A stretch of DNA of 64,000 nt from Patescibacteria group bacterium. GTDB lineage: Bacteria > Patescibacteriota > Minisyncoccia > Phycocordibacterales > CAIZLB01. The notes beneath the pieces are model-generated. The model did not search any database, was not told the origin of the DNA, and saw only the letters and a program-made list of their open reading frames with translations. Position 1 is the first letter of the stretch; each line of letters opens with the position of its first letter. Position numbers and translations under genes: made by a program. Shown in pieces: positions 44,911-62,754 of the stretch. The stretch lies in the NCBI GenBank assembly GCA_040384445.1, contig JAZKJG010000002.1:90087-154086 (forward strand), written 5' to 3'.

Positions 44911-44920
44911 TACAATCGTA

Positions 44921-45448
44921 ATGCTCTATCTTATCAACGAAGAACAACGGAAAAAAATAATTGCTGATTACTACATACGAGTAGGGCAGGTTGTTTCTTG
45001 GTTTTTGGTTGGCATATTTTTAACTATTGGAGTGTTGGCTGTACCTACGATACTTCTGCTTCAAACAGAAGTTCGTACATCTGAACAAAAAATACTAAAT
45101 CTAGAAAGAGAAATCGAAACGGCAAAAGATATGAGTACGGAGAAAGAGGCGACTGTAATCACAAACAAGCTAGAGATTTTCAAAACAGCAACAGTGAGTG
45201 ATATTCAAAAGAGATATTTAGAAGTGGAGAACACTGTTGAAAGTGTGCCTGGGGTATTAATTACAGGACTCAATGTAAATGTCTTAAATAAGACAGTGCA
45301 AATTGTGACCGAAGTTAAAGACAAAGAAGTCGCGAAAGACCTTGTGGATGTTTTAAATAAGACAACATATAAAGGTGCTGTCCTTCCGTACTCTGTACTA
45401 AGCGAAAAAGGCTCATTTATATTTGCACAAAATTTAACGTATGAATAA
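44921..45448 (+). CDS. pilN: PilN-like bitopic membrane protein
   Basis: Short cytoplasmic N-terminus, one TM, coiled coil. Position after pilM. Confidence 0.5.
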   Translation: MLYLINEEQRKKIIADYYIRVGQVVSWFLVGIFLTIGVLAVPTILLLQTEVRTSEQKILNLEREIETAKDMSTEKEATVITNKLEIFKTATVSDIQKRYLEVENTVESVPGVLITGLNVNVLNKTVQIVTEVKDKEVAKDLVDVLNKTTYKGAVLPYSVLSEKGSFIFAQNLTYE

Positions 45449-45983
45449 TTTAAAATCTTACATTCCAATAGTTTTCTTTATCTTGATTATAGGAGCAGGA
45501 TCTTTTGGAGTATATAAAATTCATACATATGCATCTACGTTTTCTGTACGGGTTGTTGAGATCAACAGTAAACTACAGTCACTTGAAGCCACACGGAGTA
45601 ATTTAGAATTATTTAAAAAGATTCTTCTTAAAGGATCTGCAGAGCAAGAACAGATGGACGCGTATGTGTTAAGTGGAGATACAGTATTTAAAGCTATTAC
45701 TGATCTTGAGAAAGATGGAAAGAAAACAGGAGTTTTTACGGGAGATAATCTAGGAATCTCTTCAGTTTCAAAAAGAGAAAATTCAGAGTTAAAGAAGTTG
45801 AATGCAGGAGAGGTAGTTGTGACAATCTCTGCTGAAGGTAAAAGAGATAGAATAGATTCATACGTTGAAGCTCTAACAAACCTGCCGTTCGTTTCTCATA
45901 TTGAACAAATCCAACAGACTTTTTCAAAAGAAACAGGAAAGACAAGAGCAACAATTACATTAGTTATTACTGAAATACTATGA
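45441..45983 (+). CDS. pilO: PilO-like bitopic membrane protein
   Basis: One TM plus coiled coil. Translationally coupled within the pilMNO block. Confidence 0.45.
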   Translation: MNNLKSYIPIVFFILIIGAGSFGVYKIHTYASTFSVRVVEINSKLQSLEATRSNLELFKKILLKGSAEQEQMDAYVLSGDTVFKAITDLEKDGKKTGVFTGDNLGISSVSKRENSELKKLNAGEVVVTISAEGKRDRIDSYVEALTNLPFVSHIEQIQQTFSKETGKTRATITLVITEIL

Positions 45984-46336
45984 AATTAAACTTCGCCTCA
46001 AAAAAGAATATTGGAGGATTTCAACCGGCATTGCACTGGGAAATGATTCTCGTTTCTTCATTTGTAATGTTGCTCTTGAGTGTGGCGTACGGAGTGTATT
46101 TATACACATTTGCAAAAAAACAGGTAGAAACAATTGCCTCGACTGATACATCCGTTGCGTCAGCAAAGTTAACTGCGTATGCGTCGCCTGAGAAAATTCA
46201 GGAATATTTTCAAATATATAAAGATCGACAGGGGAGATATACAGAAGTTATAAACGGGCTTATTGTAGGGAATGTTGTTGAGGTTAAGACTTCAACTTCA
46301 AGTGTCTCTGTCGTTGCAACAACGACGAATCAATGA
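45980..46336 (+). CDS. Small membrane protein (PilP-like position)
   Basis: One TM. Last gene of the block. Confidence 0.35.
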   Translation: MKLNFASKKNIGGFQPALHWEMILVSSFVMLLLSVAYGVYLYTFAKKQVETIASTDTSVASAKLTAYASPEKIQEYFQIYKDRQGRYTEVINGLIVGNVVEVKTSTSSVSVVATTTNQ

Positions 46337-46340
46337 TATA

Positions 46341-46415
46341 AAAGCTCTATCGCTCTTGTAGTTCAATGGATAGAACTGCGGACTTCTAAGCCGTTAATCT
46401 AGGTTCGATTCCTAG
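46341..46415 (+). tRNA. tRNA-Arg (anticodon UCU), CCA encoded
   Basis: Acceptor GCTCTTG/CGAGAGC. D-arm GTTC-AATGGATA-GAAC. Anticodon loop CTTCTAA. T-arm CTAGG-TTCGATT-CCTAG. Ends in ACCA. Confidence 0.75.
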
Positions 46416-46448
46416 CGAGAGCACCAACATGAAAAACACATCTTTGAT

Positions 46449-46931
46449 GTGTTTTTTCTATTACCTGATATACTTGTTTATATGAATACAGCAACTTGTA
46501 CGGTCAATGGACAATTAGTGCAATGTCCAGAATTCCTTTCTAATCCGCTAATATGGATTGGTTTACTTATAATCCCCTTAATAATAGTAATATTGACTTT
46601 TGTATCATTATGGAAAATTTTTGAAAAAGCCAATAAACCAGGTTGGGCATCACTAATTCCAATTTACAATATCGTCGTGTTGTGTGAAATTGTTAAAAAG
46701 CCTACATGGTACGTTGTGTTATTTTTTATTCCTTTTGTAAATGTAATTTTAGCTTTTATTCTTTTGCTGGAATTAAGTAAGGCATTTGGAAAGGGTGTTG
46801 GATTTACCTTAGGATTAATATTTCTTCCCATGATTTTTTATCCAGTACTAGCTTTTGATAGTTCGACATATAAATATGGGAACAGTACAGCTGAACCTGA
46901 AGTCCCTACAATTTCCCCAGCAACAGTTTAG
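46449..46931 (+). CDS. Hypothetical multi-TM membrane protein
   Basis: Four TM helices. 160 aa. Confidence 0.45.
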   Translation: MFFLLPDILVYMNTATCTVNGQLVQCPEFLSNPLIWIGLLIIPLIIVILTFVSLWKIFEKANKPGWASLIPIYNIVVLCEIVKKPTWYVVLFFIPFVNVILAFILLLELSKAFGKGVGFTLGLIFLPMIFYPVLAFDSSTYKYGNSTAEPEVPTISPATV

Positions 46932-46937
46932 TTACAT

Positions 46938-46969
46938 TAAAAACCGTAGATCACCTCTACGGTTTTTCT
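46938..46969 (+). terminator. Rho-independent terminator (copy 1 of a duplicated hairpin)
   Basis: AAAACCGTAGATCACCTCTACGGTTTTT. Confidence 0.7.
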
Positions 46970-46985
46970 ATGGTAAAATTTAACC

Positions 46986-47279
46986 ATGCAAAACAAATCA
47001 TTGAAAATAGGATTATCAGTAGTCTGGTTAATCCCTTTTATATATTCATTGTATGGTTTTATTTATACGATAAATGATAAAAGCAGATATGCATGTGATT
47101 CTGGAAACTCGTGTCTTTACTTTATAATCACGCCTTTTATTTTACCCTCTGTTTTGTACTTAATATGGAAACCTGAAGGGAAGAGTTGGGGGAAGCAAAT
47201 TTTTCACGCAATATTGTTGTTTCCAATACTGCTAATTGTTGCATGGGGCATATTGGCTTTACTTAGCTTAATTAAATAA
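46986..47279 (+). CDS. Small membrane protein
   Basis: 97 aa, three TM helices. Flanked by duplicated terminators. Confidence 0.4.
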   Translation: MQNKSLKIGLSVVWLIPFIYSLYGFIYTINDKSRYACDSGNSCLYFIITPFILPSVLYLIWKPEGKSWGKQIFHAILLFPILLIVAWGILALLSLIK

Positions 47280-47281
47280 AC

Positions 47282-47313
47282 AGAAAACCGTAGATCATCT
47301 CTACGGTTTTTCT
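47282..47313 (+). terminator. Rho-independent terminator (copy 2, one mismatch versus copy 1)
   Basis: AAAACCGTAGATCATCTCTACGGTTTTT. Confidence 0.7.
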
Positions 47314-47321
47314 ATAGTTTG

Positions 47322-47394
47322 TGCGCGATGAGGGACTTGAACCCCCGACCTTCTCAGTGTAAATGAGTTGCTCTACCAACTGAGCTAATCGCGC
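47322..47394 (-). tRNA. tRNA-Val (anticodon UAC)
   Basis: Acceptor GCGCGAT/ATCGCGC. D-arm GCTC-AGTTGGTA-GAGC. Anticodon loop TTTACAC. T-arm GGGGG-TTCAAGT-CCCTC. Confidence 0.75.
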
Positions 47395-47463
47395 TCTTTA
47401 CGAATTCCACTATATCATATGTATAATTGATATACAAATAGAAATATAGTACAGTACCTCTAT

Positions 47464-47546
47464 GCGCAGGTGGCGAAACGGTAGACGCACTACCTTGAGG
47501 TGGTAGCGCCCGCAAGGGTGTGGAGGTTCAAATCCTCTCTTGCGCA
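47464..47546 (+). tRNA. tRNA-Leu (anticodon GAG), long variable arm
   Basis: Acceptor GCGCAGG/CTTGCGC. Anticodon stem-loop CTACC-TTGAGGT-GGTAG. Long variable arm. T-arm GGAGG-TTCAAAT-CCTCT. Confidence 0.75.
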
Positions 47547-47569
47547 CAAATTAATGTATAATCTTATAC

Positions 47570-51335: not shown

Positions 51336-52013
51336 ATGAAAAAATTATATATTCTCATTTTCATAGTTTTGATTTCGTTACAGAGTAGTGCTGAAACTAT
51401 GACAGGTGGTGGATATACGTTGAATGGTGGTGTCGATACAACTATCGGCCAAGGGCAAGGTGGAACATATACATTGAGTTCGAACGGAGATCCTCTTTCA
51501 ACACAAAACTCAAGTGGCGGAACATACACACTGTATCCTACTCCATATTCAACGGCGATTGTTCCTGTGACTCCTGGTTCAGGCACTGCTGTGCAGGAAG
51601 TGATTCGTGCTGTTGTGTTTGGAACTCGTGTGCCTAACTATCAGGAGTATTATCCAGGTGCAATACTAGGTACAGCAAGACCTACAAATCCTTCAAGACC
51701 TGGGATTGCTCCATCTAAACCTGGAATTGGTTCAGGTAGTGGAAACCAAGGAGGATCTGCTACTACGACGTATAGTGGTTCTACTACAACTACAAATTAC
51801 GGAGGAACTGAAGGAAGTACGGTAAATGAATTCGGAGAACTTGTGACTTCAGATTTAAATTATGAGTATCCTAATACTGCAGATTTTGAAAAAGGTACAT
51901 CTACGTTTGAAGGGAAGATTGAGACAGTTCGAAAAAATATGGATTGGTGGTGGTTACTGTGGATCCTTTTTGTACTCATAGTATTGAGGTGGTTAAATCG
52001 ACGTTCTAGCTAA
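51336..52013 (+). CDS. Secreted Gly/Thr/Ser-rich protein with a C-terminal Trp-rich TM anchor
   Basis: Signal peptide. Low-complexity GGT/STT repeats. C-terminal WWWLLWILFVLIVLRWLNRRSS. Confidence 0.5.
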   Translation: MKKLYILIFIVLISLQSSAETMTGGGYTLNGGVDTTIGQGQGGTYTLSSNGDPLSTQNSSGGTYTLYPTPYSTAIVPVTPGSGTAVQEVIRAVVFGTRVPNYQEYYPGAILGTARPTNPSRPGIAPSKPGIGSGSGNQGGSATTTYSGSTTTTNYGGTEGSTVNEFGELVTSDLNYEYPNTADFEKGTSTFEGKIETVRKNMDWWWLLWILFVLIVLRWLNRRSS

Positions 52014-52041: not shown

Positions 52042-53739
52042 ATGATTCCTGTAGCTACACACATAAAAGAAGCATGTCTTTCGTTTTCTCAAGAGGTAAC
52101 GAGAGATATGTTTGTTGTGGATATTGCTAAGGATATTACGAAAGGAGATTTGTATACGAACTTTGCTTTAGTAGTAGCGGGGAAAATGGGTAAAAATCCT
52201 GTGGCAGTTGCGGTTGATCTTGGGGTCTATCTTGACGCTCATCTTGACAAAAACCTTGTTGAAAAAGTTGAAGTAGTAGGAGGGTATGTGAACTTCTGGG
52301 TAAAGGTAGGTACTGATGTTAGTATTCCAGAACATATTCAGCATTCATCATTTACAGGAAAAAAAGTAGCATACGAATACACAGACCCAAATCCGATGAA
52401 AGAATTTCATATTGGACACTTGATGGCAAACACGATTGGAGAATCAATGTCGCGTCTTGGAGAACTTGCAGGGGCTGAAGTAAAGCGATACTCATATCAA
52501 GGAGATGTTGGACGACACATTGCCACAACTCTTTGGGGTGTGCGATTTTTGGACGCGCTTTGGCCAGAGGAAGAGGTGAGTGTAACTGAGAAAGTAAAAT
52601 TTCTTGGAAGTGCGTATGTTGCTGGAAATACAAAGTTAGCTGAACTTAAAGAAGCTGGAGAGGAAAGCGAGGAATATCTGAAAGCTGTAAAAGAGATTGA
52701 GGTGATGAATCAGAAAGTGTATGACAGAACAGATGAAGAAGTGAATGTTATGTATGATCAAGGGAAAGAATGGAGCTTATTGAAATTTGAAGAATTGTAC
52801 GACATTCTTGGGACAAAATTTGATTACTACTTTTTCGAAAGTGTAACCGGTCCGATCGGAATAGACTTAGTGAAGACACATATGAATCATTTTGCGAATG
52901 GTGAAAACGGTGCAATTATTTTCGAAGGTGATCATACTCGAGTTTTCATAAATGGAAAAGGACTTCCGACATATGAAGGAAAAGAGCTTGGGCTGGCAAA
53001 GTTTAAATATGACACATGGCCATATGATAAAAGTTTTGTAATTACTGCAAATGAACAAAAACAAGCACTCGATGTAACTCTTGCTGCTATTAAACTTGTT
53101 CTTCCTGAGATAGGAGATAAGAATGAATATATTTTTAATGGAATGATGAAGTTTGCTAACATGAAAATGAGTTCACGAACTGGAAAGATTATTGCAGGAG
53201 ATGAGCTTGTGTATTCAATGATGGAAGCATCACTTGAAAAAATGAAAGATAGAGAGATGACAGATGATGAAAAGAAAAAGATTGCACAAGATGTTGCGGT
53301 AGCTGCAATTAAATTTACGATTTTGAAACAGAACTTTAGAAAAGATATTATTTTTGATCAGGAAAAATCTCTTGCTCTAGAAGGGGATAGTGGTCCGTAT
53401 ATTCAGTATACTGCAGTTCGAATTCAGTCTGTGCTTAAGAAGGTTAAAGACATTGCTTCCACTGTTGGTTCTGAACCTCTATCTAAAGAAGCTGAATTAT
53501 TACTTCGAACAATATATCGATTTGAACATACATGTTTTAATGCTATTGAAGAATCTGCCCCTCAGCATGTTGCGCAATACTTAATAGATCTTGCATCTAA
53601 GTTTAATGGGTTCTATGCAAATAATAAAATCATGGGGGAGACCGTGGATAGTAGACTAGTGGAGTTGTGTGAAAAGACGTTGAAAGTGCTTGAAAAAGGA
53701 CTTTGGATTCTCGGGATCAGAACGGTGGAGAAGATGTAG
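52042..53739 (+). CDS. argS: Arginyl-tRNA synthetase
   Basis: HIGH motif (FHIGHLMAN). Class I Rossmann fold. C-terminal DALR-like anticodon-binding region. 565 aa. Confidence 0.8.
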   Translation: MIPVATHIKEACLSFSQEVTRDMFVVDIAKDITKGDLYTNFALVVAGKMGKNPVAVAVDLGVYLDAHLDKNLVEKVEVVGGYVNFWVKVGTDVSIPEHIQHSSFTGKKVAYEYTDPNPMKEFHIGHLMANTIGESMSRLGELAGAEVKRYSYQGDVGRHIATTLWGVRFLDALWPEEEVSVTEKVKFLGSAYVAGNTKLAELKEAGEESEEYLKAVKEIEVMNQKVYDRTDEEVNVMYDQGKEWSLLKFEELYDILGTKFDYYFFESVTGPIGIDLVKTHMNHFANGENGAIIFEGDHTRVFINGKGLPTYEGKELGLAKFKYDTWPYDKSFVITANEQKQALDVTLAAIKLVLPEIGDKNEYIFNGMMKFANMKMSSRTGKIIAGDELVYSMMEASLEKMKDREMTDDEKKKIAQDVAVAAIKFTILKQNFRKDIIFDQEKSLALEGDSGPYIQYTAVRIQSVLKKVKDIASTVGSEPLSKEAELLLRTIYRFEHTCFNAIEESAPQHVAQYLIDLASKFNGFYANNKIMGETVDSRLVELCEKTLKVLEKGLWILGIRTVEKM

Positions 53740-53761
53740 GGAATCATGTATACTACCCCTT

Positions 53762-56700
53762 ATGAAGACTCCAAATGAGCGAGAATTAGCAATACTGAAA
53801 TTTTGGGATGAGAACAACATTTTTCAAAAAAGTTTAGATAAGAATCCTATAGAAGGGAAGACTTTTCGATATTATGACGGACCGCCATATGCGACTGGGT
53901 TGCCTCATATTGGTAATATGCTTCCAACAGCAGTAAAAGATGCATTTCCACGATACAAGACTATGCAAGGATTTCACGTACCTCGAACATGGGGATGGGA
54001 TTGTCATGGGCTACCGATCGAAAGTTTAGTTGAAAAGAAGCTTGGATTTAAAGGAAAAAAAGATATTGAAGAATTTGGAATTGATAAATTTAACGAAACA
54101 GCCAGAGCGAGTGTGTTTGAGTTTCGGGAAAACTGGAAGAGTATTATTCCTCGACTTGGACGATGGGTCGATATGGATCATGACTACCGAACACTTGATG
54201 CCACTTTTATGGAGTCAGGTCTGTGGGCGTTTAAGCAGTTGTGGGATAAAGGATTAGTATACGAAGGATATAAAGTAATGCCATGGTGTCCTCACTGTGG
54301 AACAGTGCTTTCAAACTTTGAAGTAACAGAAGGATATAAAGAGATTACAGATCTTTCTGCATACGTACGGTTTACGACTGAAGGTGCTTCATTTATTGCA
54401 TGGACAACAACTCCTTGGACTTTACCTGGTAATGTTGCGCTTGCAGTTGGTAATGAAATCGCATACGTGTATGTAGAAATAAAATCAGCAGATAAAACTG
54501 AGACTGTTATCATTTCAAAAAATTCTCTTGAAAAAGTGAAAACACTTATAACAGCAGAGGGAACTACGTTTACGATTTTAAAAGAGGTAACAGGAAAAGA
54601 TCTTGTTGGACTTACATATACACCGCCATTTACATATTTTACAAATGACGCAACTCTAGAGAAAAAAGAAAATGCATGGAAAGTATTTGCGGGAGATTTT
54701 GTGACAGACACAGATGGAACAGGAATTGTACATATTGCACCCGCGTTTGGAGCAGACGATATGAAGCTTGCACAGGAGCATAATCTTCCTGTTATTAAAC
54801 ACGTACTCCCGAACGGTACTTTCGCGCCTGAAGTAACAGATGTAAATGGACAGGCAAAACCAATCGAAGATCATCAGAAGGCTGATATTGATGTAATCAA
54901 ATATCTTGCTCCTGCTGGAAAACTATTTGCAAAAGAAAAATTCATCCATACATATCCTCACTGTTGGCGATGTAAAACACCTCTACTTAACTATGCTACG
55001 ACAAGTTGGTTTATTAAAACGACAGCACTCAAAGATCGAATGATTGAAGAGAACAATAATATAACGTGGCATCCAGAAGAAATTGGAACGAAGCGTCTTG
55101 GTGCATGGCTTGAAAATGTGCGAGACTGGGCAGTGTCACGAAGTCGATTTTGGGGAACACCACTTCCGATCTGGAAAGGTGAGAAGACAGGAAAAACTAT
55201 ATGTCTTGGAAGTCTAGATGAGATAAAAGAAAAGACACGACGAAATACGTACATGTCGATGAGACATGGTGAAGCTACTCACCTTGTAGAAAAGGTGATG
55301 AGTTCTCATCTTGAGTTTGCGGAAAAGCACGGACTAACTGATCTGGGTAAGTCTCAGGTTATTGCGAGTGCAGAAAAGATGGTTGCTGAAAATACGCTTC
55401 CTTCTGTTATCTATCATTCACCACTTCGAAGAACTCGAGAGACGGCAGAACTTGTGCGTGACACAATTGAGCAAAAAACTGGAAAGAGAATTGAACTCAT
55501 CTCTGAGCCAATGCTTCACGAAGAAGATTTCGGAGATCTTGATGGGCATTCTCATACAGAGCATGACGAGTATAGAAAAACTCCAGAGGAATATATTAAT
55601 AAGAAATTTCCAAATGGTGAATCATATGCAGACATGCGACTTCGAATGGGGGAAGCACTATACAGGATTGACGTTGCTCACCAAGGGGAGAATATACTCT
55701 TAATCATGCATGAAGGATGTGTATATAGTGCAGAGGATGTTGCTCTTGGAATGTCGCTTGAAAATATTATTGCAACTCACGCAGGAATTACTCAGATCAA
55801 GCCAGGACAGTATCGAACACTCAATTTTGCACATATTCCACACAACACTTCATACGAAGCAGATTTTCATCGACCATATGTAGATGAAGTCGTGTTTGAA
55901 TTAGATGGAGAAAAGTTTACACGATTACCTGAAGTTCTCGATGTATGGTATGACGCAGGATCAATGCCATTTGCATCTGTTCATTATCCATTTAATCAAA
56001 CTGCAGATATTGCAAATACAATCACTGCTGACTTTGTTGCGGAAGGATTGGATCAAACTCGTGGATGGTTCTACCATATGCTTATCATGTCGGTTGCCTT
56101 GTTTGATAAAAAGCCATTTCATAATGTTATGGTAAATGGACTTCTTCTGGCAGAAGATGGACGAAAGATGAGTAAGAGTTTAAAGAACTATCCTGACCTT
56201 ATGCCTATTGTGGAACAATATGGTGCAGATACGCTCAGGTATTTTCTTCTTGCTTCGCCGATTGTACATGCAGATGAGGTAGCATTTTCAGAAAAAGCCC
56301 TAACAGAAATTCAAAACAAACTTTTCAATAAGCTGACAAACGTGATGTCTTTTCTCGATATGTACGGTGTGAAAGATGTAGAGATAGAACACACAAAACA
56401 AAGTGATCATATTCTTGATATGTGGATTCAAGTTGAGCTTGATACATTGGTTCAGGATATGACAGAGGCTATGGATACATATCAAATCGACAGATCATTA
56501 CGACCACTTCTGCAATTCGTAGATGAACTTTCAACTTGGTATTTGAGACGTTCTCGAGATCGGTTTAAAGATGCAGACGACGCTCTTATTGTTACAAGTA
56601 AGCTTGTCCAAATTCTGACAACTGTTTCAAAACTGATGGCACCTGCAACACCGTTCATGGCTGAAGAAATATACCAATTTGTAAAAAACTTTGACACAAC

Positions 56701-57244
56701 ATTTACACTTAGATTGTACAAAGAAAGTGTACATCTTGAATCTTGGCCAACTGTGACATCAAAAATTACAAAAACTGAGATCGACGAGATTACGTTGAAG
56801 ATGCAGAAAACAAGAGAAGTGGTTGAATCTGTATTAGCGCTTCGAAATAAGGCAAACATCAAAGTGCGACAACCTCTTGCGTCACTTACACTTCCACTAG
56901 ATACATTTGGAAGTGTGCATGTACATATTCTACAAGACGAGCTTAATATTAAGCACATCATAGCAGGTGAGGACGATCAGATGGTTCTTGATATTGTTGT
57001 GACAGAAGAATTACGAGTAGAAGGTTTTGCTCGAGATATGGTACGAGAAATACAGTCTAAGCGAAAAGATCTTGATTTAATTCCACAAGATAAGATTTCG
57101 GTTGTATTCAATACTCCTGACAATGTTGATGCACTTAATGCATATGGTGCGCATACAAACTTATTTACAGAAGTGGCAAATGTAGTAACTCTTACTGTTG
57201 CATCTGCTGACACACAAAGTATTGAGGTTGCAAAAGTAGTATAG
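53762..57244 (+). CDS. ileS: Isoleucyl-tRNA synthetase, type 2 (eukaryote-like), with an inserted histidine-phosphatase (PGAM-like) domain
   Basis: PPYATGLPHIGN (HIGH variant). WCPHCGTVLSNFEV (CP1/editing entry). EVLDVWYDAGS. KMSKSLKNYPD. An in-frame segment of ~200 aa (RHGEAT...SPLRRTRETAE...GESY...LIMHEG) matches the phosphoglycerate-mutase-like histidine phosphatase superfamily. Confidence 0.85.
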   Translation: MKTPNERELAILKFWDENNIFQKSLDKNPIEGKTFRYYDGPPYATGLPHIGNMLPTAVKDAFPRYKTMQGFHVPRTWGWDCHGLPIESLVEKKLGFKGKKDIEEFGIDKFNETARASVFEFRENWKSIIPRLGRWVDMDHDYRTLDATFMESGLWAFKQLWDKGLVYEGYKVMPWCPHCGTVLSNFEVTEGYKEITDLSAYVRFTTEGASFIAWTTTPWTLPGNVALAVGNEIAYVYVEIKSADKTETVIISKNSLEKVKTLITAEGTTFTILKEVTGKDLVGLTYTPPFTYFTNDATLEKKENAWKVFAGDFVTDTDGTGIVHIAPAFGADDMKLAQEHNLPVIKHVLPNGTFAPEVTDVNGQAKPIEDHQKADIDVIKYLAPAGKLFAKEKFIHTYPHCWRCKTPLLNYATTSWFIKTTALKDRMIEENNNITWHPEEIGTKRLGAWLENVRDWAVSRSRFWGTPLPIWKGEKTGKTICLGSLDEIKEKTRRNTYMSMRHGEATHLVEKVMSSHLEFAEKHGLTDLGKSQVIASAEKMVAENTLPSVIYHSPLRRTRETAELVRDTIEQKTGKRIELISEPMLHEEDFGDLDGHSHTEHDEYRKTPEEYINKKFPNGESYADMRLRMGEALYRIDVAHQGENILLIMHEGCVYSAEDVALGMSLENIIATHAGITQIKPGQYRTLNFAHIPHNTSYEADFHRPYVDEVVFELDGEKFTRLPEVLDVWYDAGSMPFASVHYPFNQTADIANTITADFVAEGLDQTRGWFYHMLIMSVALFDKKPFHNVMVNGLLLAEDGRKMSKSLKNYPDLMPIVEQYGADTLRYFLLASPIVHADEVAFSEKALTEIQNKLFNKLTNVMSFLDMYGVKDVEIEHTKQSDHILDMWIQVELDTLVQDMTEAMDTYQIDRSLRPLLQFVDELSTWYLRRSRDRFKDADDALIVTSKLVQILTTVSKLMAPATPFMAEEIYQFVKNFDTTFTLRLYKESVHLESWPTVTSKITKTEIDEITLKMQKTREVVESVLALRNKANIKVRQPLASLTLPLDTFGSVHVHILQDELNIKHIIAGEDDQMVLDIVVTEELRVEGFARDMVREIQSKRKDLDLIPQDKISVVFNTPDNVDALNAYGAHTNLFTEVANVVTLTVASADTQSIEVAKVV

Positions 57245-57251
57245 TATCTCT

Positions 57252-57821
57252 ATGGCGTATTCGATATATCAAACAGATTGTGTTGTCCTTGGTATACGAG
57301 ATGTGCAAGAGCATGATTTAATACTGCGAGTGTTTTCTCCCATATTTGGATACATCAGAATTATTTCTAAGGGTGCACGAAAGGGAACATCAAAACTCAG
57401 GCTCAACATACAAGAATATTCTCTGGTGCAAATAGCTGCAGTAAAAGGTAAAGAGTTTTTCATTCTTACTGATGCGCATAGGGTGTTTTCATTTATACAA
57501 TCAAAGCGAGTGGTGAACTTTCTACGTGCTGCTGAGGGATTATTTTTTGATGATGAAAATGATCATGGTACAAAAATAAACACTGATATATATACTATGT
57601 TGGTTAGAATGTGTAAGTTAATTGTATGGACTGCATCCGAAAAGAAAAATGTTTCTAGTATACAAGATTTTTTTACCGTATACGTAAAAGGACTTCAAGG
57701 ATTTACAGGAAAAATTGATGTTGAAAATATGTTGAATCTGAATGATGTTGATATGTATACATGGATTGAAGAACATACGTTGTTGGTAGAAGATTTGCAA
57801 AATAGAATGCAGAAAGAGTAA
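57252..57821 (+). CDS. Hypothetical protein
   Basis: 189-aa ORF, no motif. Confidence 0.4.
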   Translation: MAYSIYQTDCVVLGIRDVQEHDLILRVFSPIFGYIRIISKGARKGTSKLRLNIQEYSLVQIAAVKGKEFFILTDAHRVFSFIQSKRVVNFLRAAEGLFFDDENDHGTKINTDIYTMLVRMCKLIVWTASEKKNVSSIQDFFTVYVKGLQGFTGKIDVENMLNLNDVDMYTWIEEHTLLVEDLQNRMQKE

Positions 57822-57837
57822 GGTTCATGTACAATAT

Positions 57838-60330
57838 GTGTATATGTTTCCTTCAGATTATAAAAAAAATGTGAATAGCCAAGAAGAGGCTGCACGGATA
57901 GAGGAGTTGAAAAAGAAATTGTATTCAGCATCTTCAAAAGATTCTGCAGTACGAGAAAGAGGTTTGCGACAACACAATGTAGACGTCGGAAAAAATTGGG
58001 GAGAAACTGATGCAAAGCAGGCTCGGATTGAAGAAATAAGAGAAAAAACAAGAGAAGAGGCAAAACTTGGATTAGCGTCTGAGAACTCTTTTCACCACGG
58101 ATCAACACTGTACGGACATTTCAGTCCTGCTGAAGATGTAACAAAAAAACAGCAACAGATTAATACTTCTTTTAAACCTACTCAGCACGAAGCACCTACT
58201 CCTGATGGAGAAGAGACGATTGGAAGTTTTTTGTCTGATAAATTTGCAGTAAAGCGAGCTCACAATACTGAAAAGAAACTTGCAGCAACAGATGTAACAT
58301 TACGATATGCATCAGCTCAAATTGAAAGAGAAATGTATCCTGGAATTGCCAAGAAAAAACCCGGTGAGCCAGCTGTGGTTGTTACAGGTACAGCGCCAGA
58401 AAAGCCTATTGTAGAAGAGAATCGGTATCATCCAGATTATAATGTGCTCACAGTTGGAAATACCCACCTCGATAAAATGACTCGAGAAGTGAGACATACA
58501 GGAGAAAAAACTGTAGAGCTTAGCAAGAGAGATAAGAAAGAAAAAACTCTCACAGAGGAAATCACGGTTGAGCAAAAGAAACGATGGGGTTTTGGAATTA
58601 TGTTTTTTGTGACTGTAATTATATTTTTCTTAAGTGCCTTAGGGTATGCATATTATTCACTTGTAACAGGTAAAAATACAATCTCTCCAGATAAGGTTGA
58701 GATTGTTGTGACAGGACCGTTGTCAGTTCGCTCAGGTGAGGTGAATGATTTCTCAATAGATATTACAAATAACAATCCAACAGATCTTACGCTTTCTGAT
58801 CTCGTGATTCAGTATCCACAAGGAACAATGTCTTCTATTGATCCATCGCTCTCTCGTATGTATGAGCGTATAGAAGTGGGAACAATCAAACCAGGAGAGA
58901 CGGTGCGTCGTAAAGCAAGTGCTATATTCTTTGGTGAAGAAAATGTAAAGAAAAATATAACATATGCACTCGAGTTTAGTATTCCAGACTCGGCAAGTAT
59001 TTTTAATGTAACTAAAGATGTAGGTATTGTGATTGCAGGATCTCCAGTAACTGCAAAGATTACAAATATTAAAGAGGTAACAAACAACCAAGAGCTTTCA
59101 TTTGATATTGAAATTCAATCAAACACTCAGGAAGTTGTAAAAAATATTCAGCTGCAAGTAGAGTATCCATTCGGATACAAACTTGAGCAATCAAACATCA
59201 AGCCTGTATTTGATAACAATACATGGAATATTGGAGACCTTGCCGCCCTCGACTCAAAGACAATTTCACTGAAAGGAAAGTTGATCGGAACAAGTAATCT
59301 TGAAAAGAATTTTAGATTTATACTTGGTGTGTATGATAGCAAGACTGGAGAAATGTCTACAGTTCTCTCAACTCAAGATCAAAAGGTAACAATTGAAAAA
59401 CCGTTTGTATCAACGAAGCTATCTCTTGATGGTTTGGTTCAGGAGTTTAAACCTGTGCAATACGAAGATTCAATCCAGGGAGATATTGTATTTACAAACA
59501 ATCTAAACGTCCCAATCACAGACGCAGTGGTTGAAATGTCTATTGGTGGAGTGCTTATAGATAGAATGAGTGTTAAGGCTAATAATGGATTCTATAGATC
59601 AAGTGACGATTTGGTCTTTTGGGATAAGGCTCAAGAGGCAAAATTAGCAAGTATAGATCCAGGTGAATCAAGAGAGCTTAACTTTAACATGATGGTTATC
59701 AAATCAAGACAGAGTCTTATTGATACACTTCGACGAGCAGGGTCTACTCTTACTGTAACCATAAAAGCTAAGCGATTGAACGAAAACAGGGTGCCAGAGG
59801 AGGTTACGTCAGTTATTAAACAAGAACTAAGACTTGAGACTGATCCGACTTTTGAGGCAGGTATTGCGCATAAGTATGGTCCATTTACAAACACAGGAGC
59901 ATTCCCTCCAAAGGTAAATGCAGAAACTACATATACATTTCTGGCGAGAATTACAAATACTGCAAATACACTCAGACAAACAACATTTTCAGCAAAACTT
60001 CCTCCAAACGCAGTATGGAAAAATGTATACTCAAAAGATATTCCAGCATCTACTGTAAGTTATAGTCAAAGCAAAAGAGAAATTACAATACAACTAGGTG
60101 ATATTAACGCAGGTACAGGCATTGATTCAGCTCCACGAGATTTTTTCTTTCAACTAGGATTCACGCCAACGTTGCCTGAGCTCGGTAAAGCGCCTACTAT
60201 CATATTATCTCCACGAATTAGTGGTGTAGATGTATTTACAAACAGAAGAATCGATAGGGGAATTGATGGATTAAATATTATCCCTACGGCAGATATTGGA
60301 AATGTAGGTAAAGGAAGTGTTGTAGAATAA
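57838..60330 (+). CDS. Large single-pass membrane protein with an extensive beta-rich extracellular region
   Basis: Charged N-terminal segment of ~250 aa, then one TM (WGFGIMFFVTVIIFFLSALGYAYY), then ~560 aa predicted extracellular. Confidence 0.55.
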   Translation: MYMFPSDYKKNVNSQEEAARIEELKKKLYSASSKDSAVRERGLRQHNVDVGKNWGETDAKQARIEEIREKTREEAKLGLASENSFHHGSTLYGHFSPAEDVTKKQQQINTSFKPTQHEAPTPDGEETIGSFLSDKFAVKRAHNTEKKLAATDVTLRYASAQIEREMYPGIAKKKPGEPAVVVTGTAPEKPIVEENRYHPDYNVLTVGNTHLDKMTREVRHTGEKTVELSKRDKKEKTLTEEITVEQKKRWGFGIMFFVTVIIFFLSALGYAYYSLVTGKNTISPDKVEIVVTGPLSVRSGEVNDFSIDITNNNPTDLTLSDLVIQYPQGTMSSIDPSLSRMYERIEVGTIKPGETVRRKASAIFFGEENVKKNITYALEFSIPDSASIFNVTKDVGIVIAGSPVTAKITNIKEVTNNQELSFDIEIQSNTQEVVKNIQLQVEYPFGYKLEQSNIKPVFDNNTWNIGDLAALDSKTISLKGKLIGTSNLEKNFRFILGVYDSKTGEMSTVLSTQDQKVTIEKPFVSTKLSLDGLVQEFKPVQYEDSIQGDIVFTNNLNVPITDAVVEMSIGGVLIDRMSVKANNGFYRSSDDLVFWDKAQEAKLASIDPGESRELNFNMMVIKSRQSLIDTLRRAGSTLTVTIKAKRLNENRVPEEVTSVIKQELRLETDPTFEAGIAHKYGPFTNTGAFPPKVNAETTYTFLARITNTANTLRQTTFSAKLPPNAVWKNVYSKDIPASTVSYSQSKREITIQLGDINAGTGIDSAPRDFFFQLGFTPTLPELGKAPTIILSPRISGVDVFTNRRIDRGIDGLNIIPTADIGNVGKGSVVE

Positions 60331-60352
60331 ATCTAAATGGTATACTTGTTGC

Positions 60353-61000
60353 ATGAAAACCAAAACAACATATAGTATTTTATTTATTAGTTTATTAATT
60401 CCAGTAATTTCAGTTCATGCAGTAGAGGTTCAGGCTTCAACAACTGTGAATGTAAAAGGTCCAAGAATGGAGATGAAGCAAGAATTGAAAGCAGAAAGAG
60501 CAGAGACAAGAGCTGATATTAAAGAGTTGCGAACAGAAGCAAAAGCTGAGATTAAGGAAAAAATGGTGGAAATGAAGGCTACATTAAAAGAAGCAAAAGC
60601 AAAAAAGTTAGATGAGCGAGCGAAGGTGAGAGTTGAGGCAAGACTAAATCGAATTTATACTCATTTAGCAAAAAGAATAACTCACTTAGTGAAGGTTGAT
60701 GCAGAAATTACAAAACGATTATCGACTCGAGTAGCATCATCTTCTGTAACTACGTTACATATGGCTGCTAAGACTGCGCTTGTACAGGCAAAACTAGATG
60801 TAGAAGCTACAAAAGCATCATCAACAGTTGCGTTAAATGCTACAACAAGTAATGCAATATTTCGAAGTCTAGTAGAGACTGCAGAAGCAAGTATTAAGAC
60901 TACAGCAGAAGCATACCGAAAAATTGTTCCAGCACTTGCGAAATTACCAAAAATCCAAGTAACTGCCACTACAACAGCAAGTACTACTATTACTAACTAA
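60353..61000 (+). CDS. Secreted Ala/Lys/Glu-rich coiled-coil protein
   Basis: Signal peptide. KAE/EAK heptad-like repeats. Confidence 0.5.
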   Translation: MKTKTTYSILFISLLIPVISVHAVEVQASTTVNVKGPRMEMKQELKAERAETRADIKELRTEAKAEIKEKMVEMKATLKEAKAKKLDERAKVRVEARLNRIYTHLAKRITHLVKVDAEITKRLSTRVASSSVTTLHMAAKTALVQAKLDVEATKASSTVALNATTSNAIFRSLVETAEASIKTTAEAYRKIVPALAKLPKIQVTATTTASTTITN

Positions 61001-61017
61001 TACTCATATATAATTTT

Positions 61018-61308
61018 ATGGAAAATACACCAATACCAAACCAAGCTCCATTTGCACAAGCGCCTGTAGTAAAGGATAACTCAACAAAGAAGATGGTTAT
61101 CTACACAATTCTACTTGCACTTGCCACAATATTCTGGATTTGGTCACTTAAGTATAACGATACTACACCAATGATGGAAAATGATCAGGCAATTGCTACT
61201 ACGACTATATCAGGAACATCTGAGGAATCTGATCTAGAAGATGAGATTGATGCGAGTCTTGATTCACAAGCAGAGCTTGAATTGAAGGGGATTGATGAGG
61301 AGTTTTAA
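61018..61308 (+). CDS. Small single-TM protein with an acidic C-terminus
   Basis: 96 aa, one TM. Confidence 0.4.
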   Translation: MENTPIPNQAPFAQAPVVKDNSTKKMVIYTILLALATIFWIWSLKYNDTTPMMENDQAIATTTISGTSEESDLEDEIDASLDSQAELELKGIDEEF

Positions 61309-61312
61309 TGCC

Positions 61313-61350
61313 TAAAAAGTCTAGCCCTGTGCATTCGCACGGGGCTTTTC
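61313..61350 (+). terminator. Rho-independent terminator
   Basis: AGCCCTGTGCATTCGCACGGGGCT hairpin followed by TTTTCTT. Confidence 0.65.
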
Positions 61351-61371
61351 TTATGCTATAGTAACCACATC

Positions 61372-62754
61372 ATGAATACAGACAAAAAGGTAAGTATGGA
61401 AGATATTATCTCTCTATGTAAGCGACGAGGGTTCATTTATCAAGGTTCTGAGATCTATGGAGGGTTGGCTGGTACTTGGGATTACGGCCCTCTTGGAGTA
61501 ATGCTTAAAGATTCTATCAAGAGACTCTGGTGGAAGCGTTTTGTTGATGACAGACTTGATATGTATGGGGTTGATGCGGCACTACTTATGAATCCTAAGG
61601 TGTGGGTGTCTTCAGGACACGTTGGAGGGTTTGCTGATCCACTTATTGAGGATTTGAAAACTAAAAAACGATATCGAGCAGATCATTTGCTTGAAGAAGC
61701 TGGTCTTGTGTGTGCAGGTAAAACTCCAACAGAGATGACAGAGATGTTTGTTGCAAATGCTATTAAAAGTCCAGAAGGAAATCCTCTTGGAGAAGTTCGA
61801 CAATTTAACATGATGTTCAAAACAAACATTGGTGCTATTGAGTCAGATGAAAATATTTCATACTTGAGACCTGAAACTGCACAGGGAATGTTTGTGAACT
61901 TTAAAAATATTCAAGATACTTTTCACCCAAAACTTCCTTTTGGTATGGCACAGATTGGGAAAGCTTTTAGAAATGAGATTGCTCCAAGAGATTTTGTGTT
62001 TCGAGTTCGAGAGTTTGAGCAGATGGAGATTGAGTATTTTGTAAAACCAGAAAACTGGACTACTTCATTTGAAGAACTACGAAAAGAAGTTTGGAATTTT
62101 ACACAGGATGTTGGTCTTGATCAATCTAAGGTTCATGAGTTAGAAATAGGGGATGGAGATAGAGCTCACTATAGCGCGCGAACAATAGACTTTGAATATG
62201 ATTTTCCATTTGGAAAAAAAGAGTTGTATGGATTAGCATACCGAACTGATTTTGATTTGAAAGCACATACTGAAGGATCAAAGGTTGATTTGTCATATTT
62301 TGATGAAGAAGCTAAAGAGAGATATATCCCACATTGTATTGAGCCATCATTTGGGCTTGATAGAACCATTCTTGCTGTTCTTGCAACAGCATACGAGACA
62401 GATAACCTAGGAGGAGAGGAAAGAGTATATTTGAAATTATCTCCAGCAGTAGCACCATACCGAGTTGCTGTATTTCCATTACTAAAAAATAAAGAAGAGT
62501 TAACAGATAAGGCAAAGGAGGTTTGGAAAAAACTAAGAGAAGTAGCGACTTCAAAAGGTTTGTCAGCCGCAAAGATTTTGTATGACGAAGCGGGAAGTAT
62601 TGGAAAGCGATACCGACGACAGGATGAGATAGGAACACCTCTATGTGTGACAGTTGATTTTGATACGCTGGAGAAAGGGACGGTGACTGTGAGAGATCGA
62701 GATAGTGGGGAGCAGAAAACTGTATTAATAGATGACTTGGGTGATATAATTTAA
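61372..62754 (+). CDS. glyQS: Glycyl-tRNA synthetase (dimeric alpha2 type)
   Basis: RRGFIYQGSEIYGGLAGTWDYGPLG N-terminal signature. Class II motifs. C-terminal anticodon-binding domain. Confidence 0.85.
   Translation: MNTDKKVSMEDIISLCKRRGFIYQGSEIYGGLAGTWDYGPLGVMLKDSIKRLWWKRFVDDRLDMYGVDAALLMNPKVWVSSGHVGGFADPLIEDLKTKKRYRADHLLEEAGLVCAGKTPTEMTEMFVANAIKSPEGNPLGEVRQFNMMFKTNIGAIESDENISYLRPETAQGMFVNFKNIQDTFHPKLPFGMAQIGKAFRNEIAPRDFVFRVREFEQMEIEYFVKPENWTTSFEELRKEVWNFTQDVGLDQSKVHELEIGDGDRAHYSARTIDFEYDFPFGKKELYGLAYRTDFDLKAHTEGSKVDLSYFDEEAKERYIPHCIEPSFGLDRTILAVLATAYETDNLGGEERVYLKLSPAVAPYRVAVFPLLKNKEELTDKAKEVWKKLREVATSKGLSAAKILYDEAGSIGKRYRRQDEIGTPLCVTVDFDTLEKGTVTVRDRDSGEQKTVLIDDLGDII

What the first reader, a model, noticed from the sequence alone, without database searches (positions are those of the whole stretch)
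53762..57244. Isoleucyl-tRNA synthetase with an in-frame histidine-phosphatase (PGAM-like) domain inserted into the catalytic core
Between the post-editing region (SRSRFWGTPLPIW) and the second Rossmann half (EVLDVWYDAGS) there is ~240 aa of extra sequence in frame. A typical IleRS has only ~60 aa here. The extra segment carries the full histidine-phosphatase superfamily signature: RHGEAT (catalytic His), SPLRRTRETAE, a Glu-rich middle region, GESY and LLIMHEG. That architecture is a hallmark of the phosphoglycerate mutase / phosphatase family, not of any aaRS module. The reading frame is continuous, with no stop and no intein-like junction residues, so this looks like a genuine domain insertion. 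I am not aware of a described aaRS with this architecture. It could be a regulatory or moonlighting phosphatase, or a tRNA/nucleotide phosphatase coupled to aminoacylation.
Basis: partly seen in the sequence, partly recalled or inferred. Interest (0 to 1): 0.85.

Follow-up and report, generated by a model that had tools for sequence, protein, structure and literature searches.

The report
Phosphatase domain nested inside isoleucyl-tRNA synthetase
An essential translation enzyme (isoleucyl-tRNA synthetase) of an ultra-small Patescibacteria bacterium carries a complete, apparently active phosphatase domain inside its catalytic core; this pairing recurs across hundreds of related species, and I found no paper describing it.

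Summary
Window 53762-57244 (+) encodes a 1160-aa type-2 IleRS. A 208-aa histidine-phosphatase (HP) domain (aa 493-700, nt 55238-55861) replaces a 5-8-residue loop of other IleRSs.

- **Catalytic residues:** R501, H502, R557, E587 and H650 are essentially invariant in 196 IleRS-embedded copies.
- **Not an artefact:** the architecture occurs in at least 174 species-representative genomes (Parcubacteria/Paceibacteria).
- **New, split form:** in relatives whose IleRS lacks the insert, a free 190-aa HP of the same subfamily lies beside IleRS. This held in 7 of 7 informative loci, usually as ArgRS-HP-IleRS-RecO, the window's own gene order.
- **New, other sites:** other lineages carry HP domains at three other IleRS sites, in 1-3 copies.
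- **New, second host:** Gracilibacteria/Peregrinibacteria carry them in the homologous hairpin of ValRS (up to 3-4 copies).
- **No terminal fusions** were seen.

The evidence points to a selected physical partnership between an active phosphatase and the Ile/Val synthetases. The substrate is unknown. Seven literature searches found no description.

The parts
53762..57244 (+). Complete gene for IleRS with a nested histidine-phosphatase domain (1160 aa plus TAG stop)
   Evidence: TIGR00392 scores 839 bits (cut-off 621). The protein is identical to NCBI MAG protein P0001.
53762..55237 (+). IleRS N-terminal part (aa 1-492): first Rossmann half, CP1 editing domain, and CP core up to the hairpin helix GSLDEIKEKT
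   Evidence: It aligns to 1ILE residues 14-480 and human IARS1 residues 15-491. The editing motifs TTTPWT (54404-54421) and GTGIVHIAPAFGADD (54716-54760) are intact.
53906..53917 (+). HIGH signature motif, present here as the variant H-I-G-N
   Evidence: In 118 relatives, 86 have H(F/Y)GH, 24 have HxGN and 6 have HFGS.
55238..55861 (+). Inserted histidine-phosphatase (branch 1) domain, aa 493-700
55262..55270 (+). RHG motif: R501 and the predicted nucleophile H502
   Evidence: R and H are each present in 195 of 196 IleRS-embedded domains. Both are invariant in alignments A1 and A3.
55430..55432 (+). R557, the phosphate-pocket Arg of the SPLxRT motif
   Evidence: Present in 196 of 196 domains.
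55520..55522 (+). E587, the predicted general acid
   Evidence: Present in 195 of 196 domains, with D in the remaining one.
55709..55711 (+). H650, the second pocket His
   Evidence: Present in 196 of 196 domains.
55838..55846 (+). Conserved P-H-N motif in the C-terminal linker that returns the chain to IleRS
   Evidence: P693 and H694 are at least 90% conserved. Linker pLDDT is about 90-92 in the full-length model. The following residue varies and no Hint fold is present, so this is not an intein junction.
55862..57241 (+). IleRS C-terminal part (aa 701-1160): DFHRPYVD, DVWYDAGS, second Rossmann half with KMSKS (56165-56179), anticodon-binding domain, type-2 C-terminal DUF5915
   Evidence: The whole-model Foldseek search gives TMt 0.78-0.89 to type-2 IleRS structures 8C8U, 8WND and 7D5C.
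55976..56014 (+). Surface loop (aa 739-751) that hosts an HP domain in other lineages (site B)
   Evidence: pLDDT is 56-62 here. P0124, P0162 and P0246 carry an HP at this position.
56363..56413 (+). Loop at the junction of the catalytic and anticodon domains (aa 868-884) that hosts an HP domain in other lineages (site C)
   Evidence: pLDDT is about 72. The second HP of P0124 and the third (truncated) HP of P0162 sit here.
52042..53739 (+). Arginyl-tRNA synthetase, the conserved upstream neighbour. In split lineages the free HP gene sits between it and IleRS.
   Evidence: Synteny is shown.
57252..57821 (+). RecO-like gene, the conserved downstream neighbour
   Evidence: The same order is seen in L081, L083, L092 and L093.

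Best explanation
The gene encodes a working type-2 isoleucyl-tRNA synthetase with a complete, catalytically competent histidine phosphatase of the PhoE/PspA/GpgP type. The phosphatase is nested, through short rigid linkers, in the tip region of the hairpin between the WGxPxPxW and DxWxDxG motifs of the catalytic core. This phosphatase subfamily is an evolutionarily conserved partner of the branched-chain class Ia synthetases in Patescibacteria. It occurs as a separate gene beside IleRS (usually immediately upstream), or nested in IleRS at one of at least four surface loops flanking the KMSKS region, or nested in the homologous hairpin of ValRS.

Most likely mechanism (inferred): the domain adds a further hydrolytic active site to the synthetase. 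H502 would attack a terminal phosphate held by R501, R557 and H650. E587 would protonate the leaving group, and the phospho-histidine would then be hydrolysed. The substrate would be a phosphorylated ligand that is bound by, produced by, or blocks the synthetase. Candidates are a nucleotide product (AMP or PPi-like terminal phosphate) or a 2'/3'-phosphorylated tRNA end.

Shown: the architecture, the fold, the catalytic-residue conservation and the recurrent linkage. Inferred: catalytic activity, coupling to aminoacylation, and substrate identity.
For: - **Domain and fold:**
- **Catalytic residues:** the catalytic set is essentially invariant in 196 embedded domains at about 30-100% identity (each residue in at least 194 of 196), and in every copy of the multi-copy variants.
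- **IleRS motifs and score intact:**
- **Spread:** all 120 nearest clusters carry the domain, as do at least 174 GTDB species representatives, all with continuous ORFs.
- **Split form:** the free HP of the same subfamily lies next to an insert-less IleRS in 7 of 7 informative loci. Six are directly upstream with gaps of about 1-10 nt, in the window's own ArgRS-(HP)-IleRS-RecO synteny.
- **Independent insertions:** sites A2, B and C are used while site A is left intact in P0124 and P0162.
- **Second host:** ValRS carries HP in 72 of 121 relatives, at the homologous hairpin, with up to three full-length copies per protein detected (P0164 has a partial fourth).
- **No end-to-end fusions:** none among about 280 embedded domains, even though the split genes are only 1-10 nt apart. 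This argues for a positional requirement.
- **Rigid linkers:** pLDDT is about 90, whole-protein pTM is 0.76, and the PHN linker motif is conserved.
Against: - No biochemical data exist, and no substrate can be read from the sequence.
- The domain is acidic (pI about 5.8; median 5.9 across relatives), so it has no obvious RNA-binding surface.
- All aaRSs make AMP and PPi, so product removal does not explain restriction to IleRS and ValRS.
- Multiple tandem copies are easier to explain by dosage or several specificities than by a single coupled site.
- HP-less ValRS genes have no adjacent HP gene.
- The window clade has replaced the phosphate-pocket Asn (Asn17 equivalent, position 508) with Leu.
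- I could not obtain model coordinates, so the distance and orientation of the HP active site relative to the synthetic site and tRNA are unknown.
Confidence: 0.5

Rival explanations
1. Autonomous housekeeping phosphatase that merely hitch-hikes. The cell needs this broad-specificity phosphatase for some unrelated metabolic step. Because its gene lay inside the conserved ArgRS-IleRS block, local rearrangements repeatedly dropped it into permissive surface loops of IleRS or ValRS. That guarantees co-expression in a streamlined genome, with no biochemical coupling to aminoacylation.
For: - The fold and nearest relatives are small-molecule phosphatases (PhoE, PspA, GpgP, riboflavin-pathway HFP, CobC).
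- Sites B and C are low-pLDDT surface loops.
- Tandem copies with intact catalytic sites fit a dosage or multi-specificity role.
- Free two-domain HP proteins exist.
- Patescibacterial ValRSs also host other foreign domains (PF04480, PF00216), and NCBIfam has an IleRS-with-GNAT model, so these loops are generally permissive.
- The domain is acidic.
Against: - No simple N- or C-terminal fusions were seen, although the stop-to-start gaps are 1-10 nt and such fusions would be the easiest event.
- The hosts seen are only IleRS and its closest paralog ValRS, at homologous positions.
- The linkers are conserved and confidently modelled.
- Adjacency is kept across IleRSs that are only 34-44% identical to the window's.
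Confidence: 0.3
2. Repair or antidote phosphatase. The domain removes an inhibitory phosphate or pyrophosphate from the 3' end (A76) of tRNA delivered by the synthetase, or from the synthetase itself near the KMSKS loop. This would counter toxin-type kinases or pyrophosphokinases. (From my own knowledge, not checked here: toxSAS enzymes pyrophosphorylate the tRNA CCA end, and HipA-type kinases phosphorylate class I aaRSs.)
For: - All insertion sites flank the catalytic cleft and KMSKS region rather than the termini or the anticodon domain.
- The attachment is rigid.
Against: - The closest structural relatives are small-molecule enzymes with a cap, not the open SixA type.
- The domain surface is acidic overall.
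- There is no reason why only tRNA-Ile or tRNA-Val would need repair.
- No toxin genes were examined.
- Multiple copies are unnecessary for this role.
Confidence: 0.12
3. Non-catalytic or slow-turnover sensor. The domain binds a phosphorylated metabolite and allosterically tunes IleRS, coupling translation to energy or carbon status.
For: - The linkers are rigid and the insertion is in the catalytic core.
- The window clade lost the pocket Asn (L508).
- The pocket residues needed for binding are also the catalytic ones, so their conservation alone cannot separate binding from catalysis.
Against: - The general-acid Glu and nucleophile His are essentially invariant over very deep divergence, including all tandem copies.
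- The free-standing orthologs look like ordinary enzymes.
Confidence: 0.06
4. Artefact or selfish element: a chimeric assembly, a frameshifted pseudogene, or an intein or other mobile insertion.
For: - The junction reads ...IPHN|T..., which superficially recalls an intein C-terminal HN+Thr.
- The sequence comes from a MAG.
Against: - The same in-frame architecture occurs in at least 174 species representatives and hundreds of independent assemblies from NCBI, JGI, ENA and Logan.
- Composition is uniform across the junctions.
- The whole insert folds as one HP domain with no Hint or endonuclease fold.
- The residue after HN varies among relatives.
- The catalytic residues are under strong constraint.
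Confidence: 0.01

Closest known systems
Type-2 (eukaryote-like) isoleucyl-tRNA synthetase, e.g. T. thermophilus 1ILE, P. megaterium IleRS2 8C8U, yeast 8WND
   Same: The full set of IleRS modules and motifs is present. TIGR00392 is above its cut-off, and TM-scores are 0.78-0.89 over the synthetase body.
   Different: A 208-aa foreign catalytic domain replaces a 5-8-residue loop between residues 480 and 489 (1ILE numbering). The HIGH motif reads HIGN.
PhoE (B. stearothermophilus 1EBB/1H2E), PspA phosphoserine phosphatase (4IJ5) and GpgP Rv2419c (6S2Q): short-cap phosphatases of histidine-phosphatase branch 1
   Different: Identity is only 22-24%. The domain scores below every NCBIfam equivalog cut-off. 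It is nested in, or genetically tied to, an aaRS. The window clade has Leu instead of the pocket Asn.
CP1 editing domain of IleRS/ValRS/LeuRS (a hydrolytic domain nested in the class Ia catalytic core)
   Same: It is the precedent for a second hydrolytic active site inserted into the Rossmann fold of the same enzymes.
   Different: CP1 is universal and ancient, has an unrelated fold, and hydrolyses aminoacyl esters. The HP domain is lineage-restricted and is a phospho-histidine enzyme.
NCBIfam NF040702, 'isoleucine--tRNA ligase, N-acetyltransferase domain-containing'
   Same: It is a curated example of an IleRS that carries a foreign enzymatic domain.
   Different: The domain is different (GNAT) and, judging by the profile offsets, sits at a different position. 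The window protein scores 312 bits against a cut-off of 1999, so it is not a member.
Bifunctional proteins with a histidine-phosphatase module: Rv2228c RNase H/CobC-type acid phosphatase (NF005567), MutT1 Nudix+HP (3FJY, 9CXX), PFK-2/FBPase-2
   Same: An HP domain is combined with another enzyme in one polypeptide. NF005567 is the best NCBIfam hit for the insert (62 bits).
   Different: Those are end-to-end fusions, not nested insertions, and none involves an aaRS.

Membership tests
Isoleucyl-tRNA synthetase (class Ia, TIGR00392) | Whole-protein score above the curated equivalog cut-off | tested here: met
   839 bits against 621.4, split around the insert.
Isoleucyl-tRNA synthetase (class Ia, TIGR00392) | HIGH and KMSKS signature motifs of the class I Rossmann fold | tested here: inconclusive
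   KMSKS is exact (aa 802-806). HIGH is H-I-G-N, with the 4th His changed to Asn; 30 of 118 relatives have Asn or Ser at this position. The effect on activity was not tested.
Isoleucyl-tRNA synthetase (class Ia, TIGR00392) | CP1 editing domain with the Thr-rich motif and the GTG..H...G..D motif | tested here: met
   WTTTPWTLPGN and GTGIVHIAPAFGADD are present and invariant in relatives. The region matches PDB editing-domain fragment 1WK8 at E=2e-29.
Isoleucyl-tRNA synthetase (class Ia, TIGR00392) | Helical anticodon-binding domain and type-2 C-terminal domain | tested here: met
   Anticodon_1 E=8e-27 and DUF5915. TMt is 0.78-0.81 to full-length type-2 IleRS structures.
Isoleucyl-tRNA synthetase (class Ia, TIGR00392) | Aminoacylation of tRNA-Ile; sole IleRS of the genome | not testable with these tools
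   No second class Ia gene lies in the 64-kb window.
Histidine phosphatase superfamily, branch 1 (PF00300) | Pfam score above the gathering threshold | tested here: met
   90.7 bits against 21.7, E=1.3e-25, aa 500-673.
Histidine phosphatase superfamily, branch 1 (PF00300) | RHG nucleophile motif, second Arg and second His of the phosphate pocket, acidic proton donor | tested here: met
   R501, H502, R557, H650 and E587 are present and conserved in 194-196 of 196 embedded domains.
Histidine phosphatase superfamily, branch 1 (PF00300) | Alpha/beta fold with a central mixed sheet | tested here: met
Histidine phosphatase superfamily, branch 1 (PF00300) | Phosphatase activity through a phospho-histidine intermediate | not testable with these tools
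   Needs an enzyme assay.
Cofactor-dependent phosphoglycerate mutase (dPGM) | Equivalog-level score, the ERHYG and HGNS motifs, and the C-terminal tail (motifs recalled from my own knowledge) | tested here: not met
   NF038349 scores 41.8 bits against 225, and NF002339 scores 27 against 316. The sequence reads HEEDFGD and MHEG instead. The best structural matches are phosphatases.
Alpha-ribazole phosphatase CobC (TIGR03162) | Score above the equivalog cut-off | tested here: not met
   61.6 bits against 162.9.
Intein / mobile protein insertion | Hint fold with a Cys/Ser at the N-junction and conserved HN plus Cys/Ser/Thr at the C-junction | tested here: not met
   The whole insert is one HP domain. 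The N-junction has no nucleophile. The residue after the PHN motif varies among relatives.

The most novel reading that the evidence does not exclude
The nested phosphatase is a previously unrecognised third active site of class Ia synthetases, alongside synthesis and editing. It would be a 'healing' site that removes a blocking phosphate or pyrophosphate from the tRNA 3' end, or from the synthetase itself, before charging. In that reading, IleRS and ValRS of Patescibacteria carry a built-in countermeasure against phosphorylating toxins. The split HP proteins would do the same job as non-covalent subunits.
Probability: 0.12. Interest if true: 0.95.

Novelty: new variant of a known kind. Interest (0 to 1): 0.8.

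Why it matters
Aminoacyl-tRNA synthetases are among the most conserved enzymes known. Added catalytic domains in them, such as editing domains, have each revealed new biology. Here a second, unrelated hydrolase with an intact active site has been recruited to IleRS or ValRS. This happened repeatedly, at several sites, in one to four copies, across a large part of the Candidate Phyla Radiation.

If the two activities are coupled, this defines a new step in tRNA charging or its protection. If they are not, it is a striking natural example of recurrent domain nesting in an essential enzyme of minimal genomes.

There are also practical consequences:
- NCBI's annotation names these proteins only 'class I tRNA ligase family protein'.
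- Metabolic reconstructions may miscount the domain as a phosphoglycerate mutase.
- The split and nested forms provide a ready-made experimental system.

Tried and rejected
- **Assembly chimera or frameshift:** rejected. The architecture recurs in all 120 nearest clusters, and the best 80 species-representative loci all have continuous ORFs. Composition is uniform.
- **Intein:** rejected. The insert is a single HP fold with no Hint blocks, and the +1 residue varies.
- **Phosphoglycerate mutase or CobC identity:** rejected. Scores are far below cut-offs, the mutase motifs are absent, and the best structural matches are phosphatases.
- **Second HP gene or second IleRS in the window:** none found.
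- **End-to-end HP-IleRS fusions:** looked for, none found.
- **HP gene adjacent to HP-less ValRS:** not found in the two loci checked.
- **RNA-binding signature:** the domain pI is acidic, which gives no support.
- **Ancestral state (split or nested):** rough NJ trees intersperse the two states and are not reliable enough to decide.
- **Literature:** seven full-text searches on IleRS/ValRS/aaRS with histidine phosphatase, PGAM, His_Phos_1, Parcubacteria, Gracilibacteria and CPR found nothing relevant. Two papers checked by term search also had nothing.
- **AFDB fold search:** the library was unavailable.
- **Model coordinates:** not returned by the tools, so the geometry of the HP site relative to the IleRS site could not be measured.


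Full report
**1. The observation**

The + strand ORF 53690..57244 is uninterrupted. Starting from the ATG at 53762 it encodes 1160 aa. That sequence is identical to an NCBI MAG protein named only 'class I tRNA ligase family protein [Patescibacteria group bacterium]', on a 275.7-kb contig.

Pfam splits tRNA-synt_1 into two stretches around a His_Phos_1 match at aa 500-673 (E=1.3e-25, 90.7 bits, cut-off 21.7). It also finds Anticodon_1 and the type-2 C-terminal DUF5915. NCBIfam TIGR00392 (ileS) scores 839 bits against a cut-off of 621.

Alignment to solved IleRSs puts query residue 492 opposite T. thermophilus 1ILE residue 480, and residue 701 opposite residue 489. For human IARS1 the corresponding residues are 491 and 497. 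The insert is therefore aa 493-700 (nt 55238-55861, checked), and 208 residues replace a 5-8-residue loop. GC content does not change across the junctions.

**2. What the insert is**

An AlphaFold2 model of aa 483-716, built on 37 homologous segments, has mean pLDDT 95.4 and pTM 0.91. The structural matches are:
- Foldseek: the same set.
- Sequence search of the PDB: PhoE is the closest, at only E=4e-6.

All NCBIfam equivalog models for dPGM, CobC, PspA and GpmB score far below their cut-offs. The mutase-type motifs are also absent. The domain is therefore a short-cap phosphatase-type member of histidine-phosphatase branch 1, not a phosphoglycerate mutase.

The catalytic set is conserved as follows among 196 IleRS-embedded domains that are otherwise only about 30-100% identical:
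- R501 and H502 in 195 of 196.
- R557 in 196 of 196.
- E587 in 195 of 196, with Asp in the other.
- R628 in 194 of 196.
- H650 in 196 of 196.

The same residues are invariant in alignments A1 and A3. One lineage-specific change stands out. The pocket Asn (Asn17 equivalent, position 508) is Leu in the window's clade; among the 196 domains, 46 have Leu and 140 have Asn.

**3. The synthetase part looks functional**

KMSKS, the CP1 editing motifs (TTTPWT, GTGIVHIAPAFGADD), WGTPLPIW and DVWYDAGS are intact. The full-length AF2 model (pLDDT 87.2, pTM 0.76) superposes on type-2 IleRS structures with TMt 0.78-0.89. The HIGH motif reads HIGN. In 30 of 118 relatives the fourth residue is likewise Asn or Ser rather than His. 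I did not follow up the consequence.

**4. Not an artefact and not rare**

All 120 nearest protein clusters (46-100% identity, 931-1277 aa, two of them truncated, from NCBI, JGI, ENA and Logan) carry PF00300.

The best 80 are named Parcubacteria/Paceibacterota (Zambryski-, Taylor-, Nomura- and Adlerbacteria, and Minisyncoccia). Some carry 'uncultured Saccharibacteria' TPA labels that I do not trust. The set includes complete chromosomes CP060229 and OY970126. All 80 have a continuous ORF with RHG.

**5. New finding: the same phosphatase exists as a separate gene beside IleRS**

I searched 1.8 billion representative proteins with the insert alone. Besides IleRS proteins and fragments, the search returned free-standing proteins of about 190 aa from E of about 1e-17.

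I looked up the genomic context of seven of these with enough flanking sequence:

| Free HP protein | Locus |
|---|---|
| P0167 | L081 |
| P0143 | L083 |
| P0198 | L087 |
| P0180 | L086 |
| P0155 | L085 |
| P0419 | L092 |
| P0481 | L093 |

All seven lie next to an IleRS that lacks the insert. Six are directly upstream and co-directional, with stop-to-start gaps of about 1-10 nt. One (L085) is convergent. An eighth protein, P0204, was on a contig too short to judge.

The surrounding order is ArgRS-HP-IleRS-(small ORF)-RecO-DUF11/CLIPPER-class II aaRS. This is the window's own gene order with the HP moved out of IleRS. At site A, the L081 IleRS (44% identical to the window's) has just 'GSIKELEK-LSSVKV-TDLHKHFID'.

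This free form is itself a large family. There are at least 120 clusters, all 172-231 aa, mostly named Candidatus Staskawiczbacteria.

**6. New finding: several independent insertion sites, multiple copies, and a second host**

Of about 280 embedded domains that I could place by their flanks, 273 sit at the window's site A. The exceptions are informative:
- **P0124** (1419 aa) belongs to a cluster with six members, on contigs of up to 1.06 Mb. It leaves site A intact. One HP sits between DCWFESGSMPYAS and ADFIAEGLDQTRGW (site B). Another sits at the junction of the catalytic and anticodon domains (site C).
- **P0162** also leaves site A intact. It has HPs at the Zn-hairpin tip (A2) and at site B, and the start of one at site C.
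- **P0252** has two tandem HPs at site A.

Sites B and C coincide with the low-confidence surface loops of the window protein (pLDDT 56-62 and 72). Every copy keeps the catalytic residues.

Two outliers, P0164 and P0149, turned out to be ValRS. Among 121 ValRS relatives, 72 carry 1-3 full-length HP domains, in proteins of up to 1626 aa, with Gracilibacteria or Peregrinibacteria names. Most of these domains sit in the hairpin 'WGHxIPVWY...[HP]...RQDEDTLDTWFSS', which is homologous to IleRS site A/A2. Nine sit just before the WCISRQ motif.

HP-less ValRS genes in syntenic loci have no adjacent HP gene. One 439.5-kb contig appears to hold both an IleRS with two HPs and an HP-less ValRS, judging by matching contig lengths.

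I found no N- or C-terminal end-to-end fusion.

**7. Interpretation**

The following are shown:
- A real, structurally complete HP domain nested in a canonical type-2 IleRS.
- Deep conservation of its catalytic residues.
- Recurrent genetic and physical linkage of this HP subfamily to IleRS and ValRS, in at least three architectures and at at least five positions.
- Linkers that are conserved (the PHN motif) and confidently modelled.

The following are inferred:
- The domain is an active phosphomonoesterase working through phospho-His502, with E587 as the general acid. This is the established mechanism of the superfamily.
- Its position beside the catalytic cleft and KMSKS region is selected for.

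Two points argue that the position is selected. First, no trivial terminal fusions were seen, although the split genes are only 1-10 nt apart. Second, the hosts are restricted to two closest-paralog synthetases at homologous loops. Both argue against pure hitch-hiking.

Other points favour hitch-hiking. The fold is of the small-molecule type, the surface is acidic (pI about 5.8), copy number varies, and these loops are generally permissive (GNAT-IleRS in NCBIfam; PF04480 and PF00216 in some ValRSs). These keep the hitch-hiking reading alive at roughly 0.3.

I commit to 'IleRS-partnered active phosphatase acting on a phosphorylated ligand at or near the synthetase active site' at about 0.5. I cannot name the substrate. 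Repair of a phosphorylated tRNA 3' end or of a phosphorylated synthetase is the most exciting option (about 0.12). It rests only on geometry-by-topology and analogy.

Rough NJ trees place split and nested lineages among one another. They also put one embedded HP (P0181) inside the clade of IleRS-adjacent free HPs, and the IleRS of P0181 pairs with a split-type IleRS. This hints at several interconversions. These trees are not reliable enough to fix the direction of change.

**8. Comparison with what is known, and novelty**

The host is a member of the IleRS family (TIGR00392 met; HIGH variant noted). The insert is a member of PF00300 but of no curated equivalog family. Three kinds of precedent exist:
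- Nested hydrolytic domains in class Ia synthetases (the CP1 editing domain).
- A curated GNAT-containing IleRS (NF040702).
- End-to-end HP fusions (Rv2228c-type RNase H/acid phosphatase, MutT1, PFK-2/FBPase-2).

Seven full-text searches and two term searches within papers found no description of a histidine phosphatase nested in, or operonic with, IleRS or ValRS. The library lacks most subscription journals, so an existing description cannot be excluded. The sequences themselves are public but only generically named.

I rate this a new variant of a known kind, with high interest (0.8).

**9. Caveats**
- The sample of HP relatives was seeded from an IleRS-nested domain, so host range beyond IleRS and ValRS was not surveyed without bias.
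- Insertion sites were assigned from BLAST and motif flanks.
- The taxon names are those of the depositors.
- No coordinates were available to measure inter-site geometry.
- Whether a genome also has a second, canonical IleRS could not be tested.

Noticed in passing
window 53906-53917: The IleRS HIGH signature reads H-I-G-N, with the fourth His changed to Asn. Of 118 close relatives, 24 have HxGN and 6 have HFGS, against 86 with H(F/Y)GH. PDB hits include a P. megaterium IleRS2 'HIGH motif mutant' described as mupirocin hyper-resistant (8C8W), so the variant may bear on inhibitor sensitivity or catalysis.
   Followed up: partly
window 55283-55285 (aa 508): The phosphate-pocket Asn of the histidine-phosphatase fold (Asn17 equivalent) is Leu in the window's clade. 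Among 196 embedded domains, 46 have Leu and 140 have Asn. This may indicate altered substrate binding in this lineage.
   Followed up: partly
window 52042-62754: The block ArgRS - IleRS - RecO-like - 830-aa DUF11/CLIPPER-like protein - 215-aa ORF - class II aaRS (HGTP anticodon type) is conserved in order in distant Parcubacteria (L081, L083, L092, L093). ArgRS and IleRS are separated by only 22 nt.
   Followed up: partly
L085 2682-5609 (- strand): In this metagenomic contig the insert-less IleRS is called as two consecutive ORFs, corresponding to window residues 6-401 and 412-1152. It lies convergent to the ArgRS-HP pair. This could be a frameshift, a sequencing error or a genuinely split IleRS.
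   Followed up: no
P0302, P0337, P0311, P0305 (ValRS relatives): Some Patescibacteria ValRS proteins carry other foreign Pfam domains: PF04480 (DUF559, endonuclease-like), PF00216 (HU-type DNA-binding) and PF16326. The class Ia synthetases of this radiation seem to be general hot spots for domain insertion.
   Followed up: no
P0241 (2317 aa): This giant protein combines two His_Phos_1 domains with a PHP domain and an inositol-monophosphatase domain. It looks like a multi-phosphatase polyprotein related to the insert subfamily.
   Followed up: no
window 51336-52013: A 225-aa Gly/Thr/Ser-rich ORF has an N-terminal signal-like segment and a C-terminal hydrophobic stretch followed by basic residues (WWWLLWILFVLIVLRWLNRR). 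It has no Pfam match and may be a surface-anchored protein.
   Followed up: no
window 43004-47547: A cluster of four tRNA genes lies on both strands within 4.5 kb: Ser-TGA, Arg-TCT, Val-TAC and Leu-GAG. No tRNA-Ile gene lies in the window.
   Followed up: no
L040 (QYPD01000003.1): One IleRS-HP locus sits on an 8.5-kb contig of a MAG labelled Spirochaetia. Mis-binning of a Patescibacteria contig is more likely than true occurrence outside the radiation.
   Followed up: no
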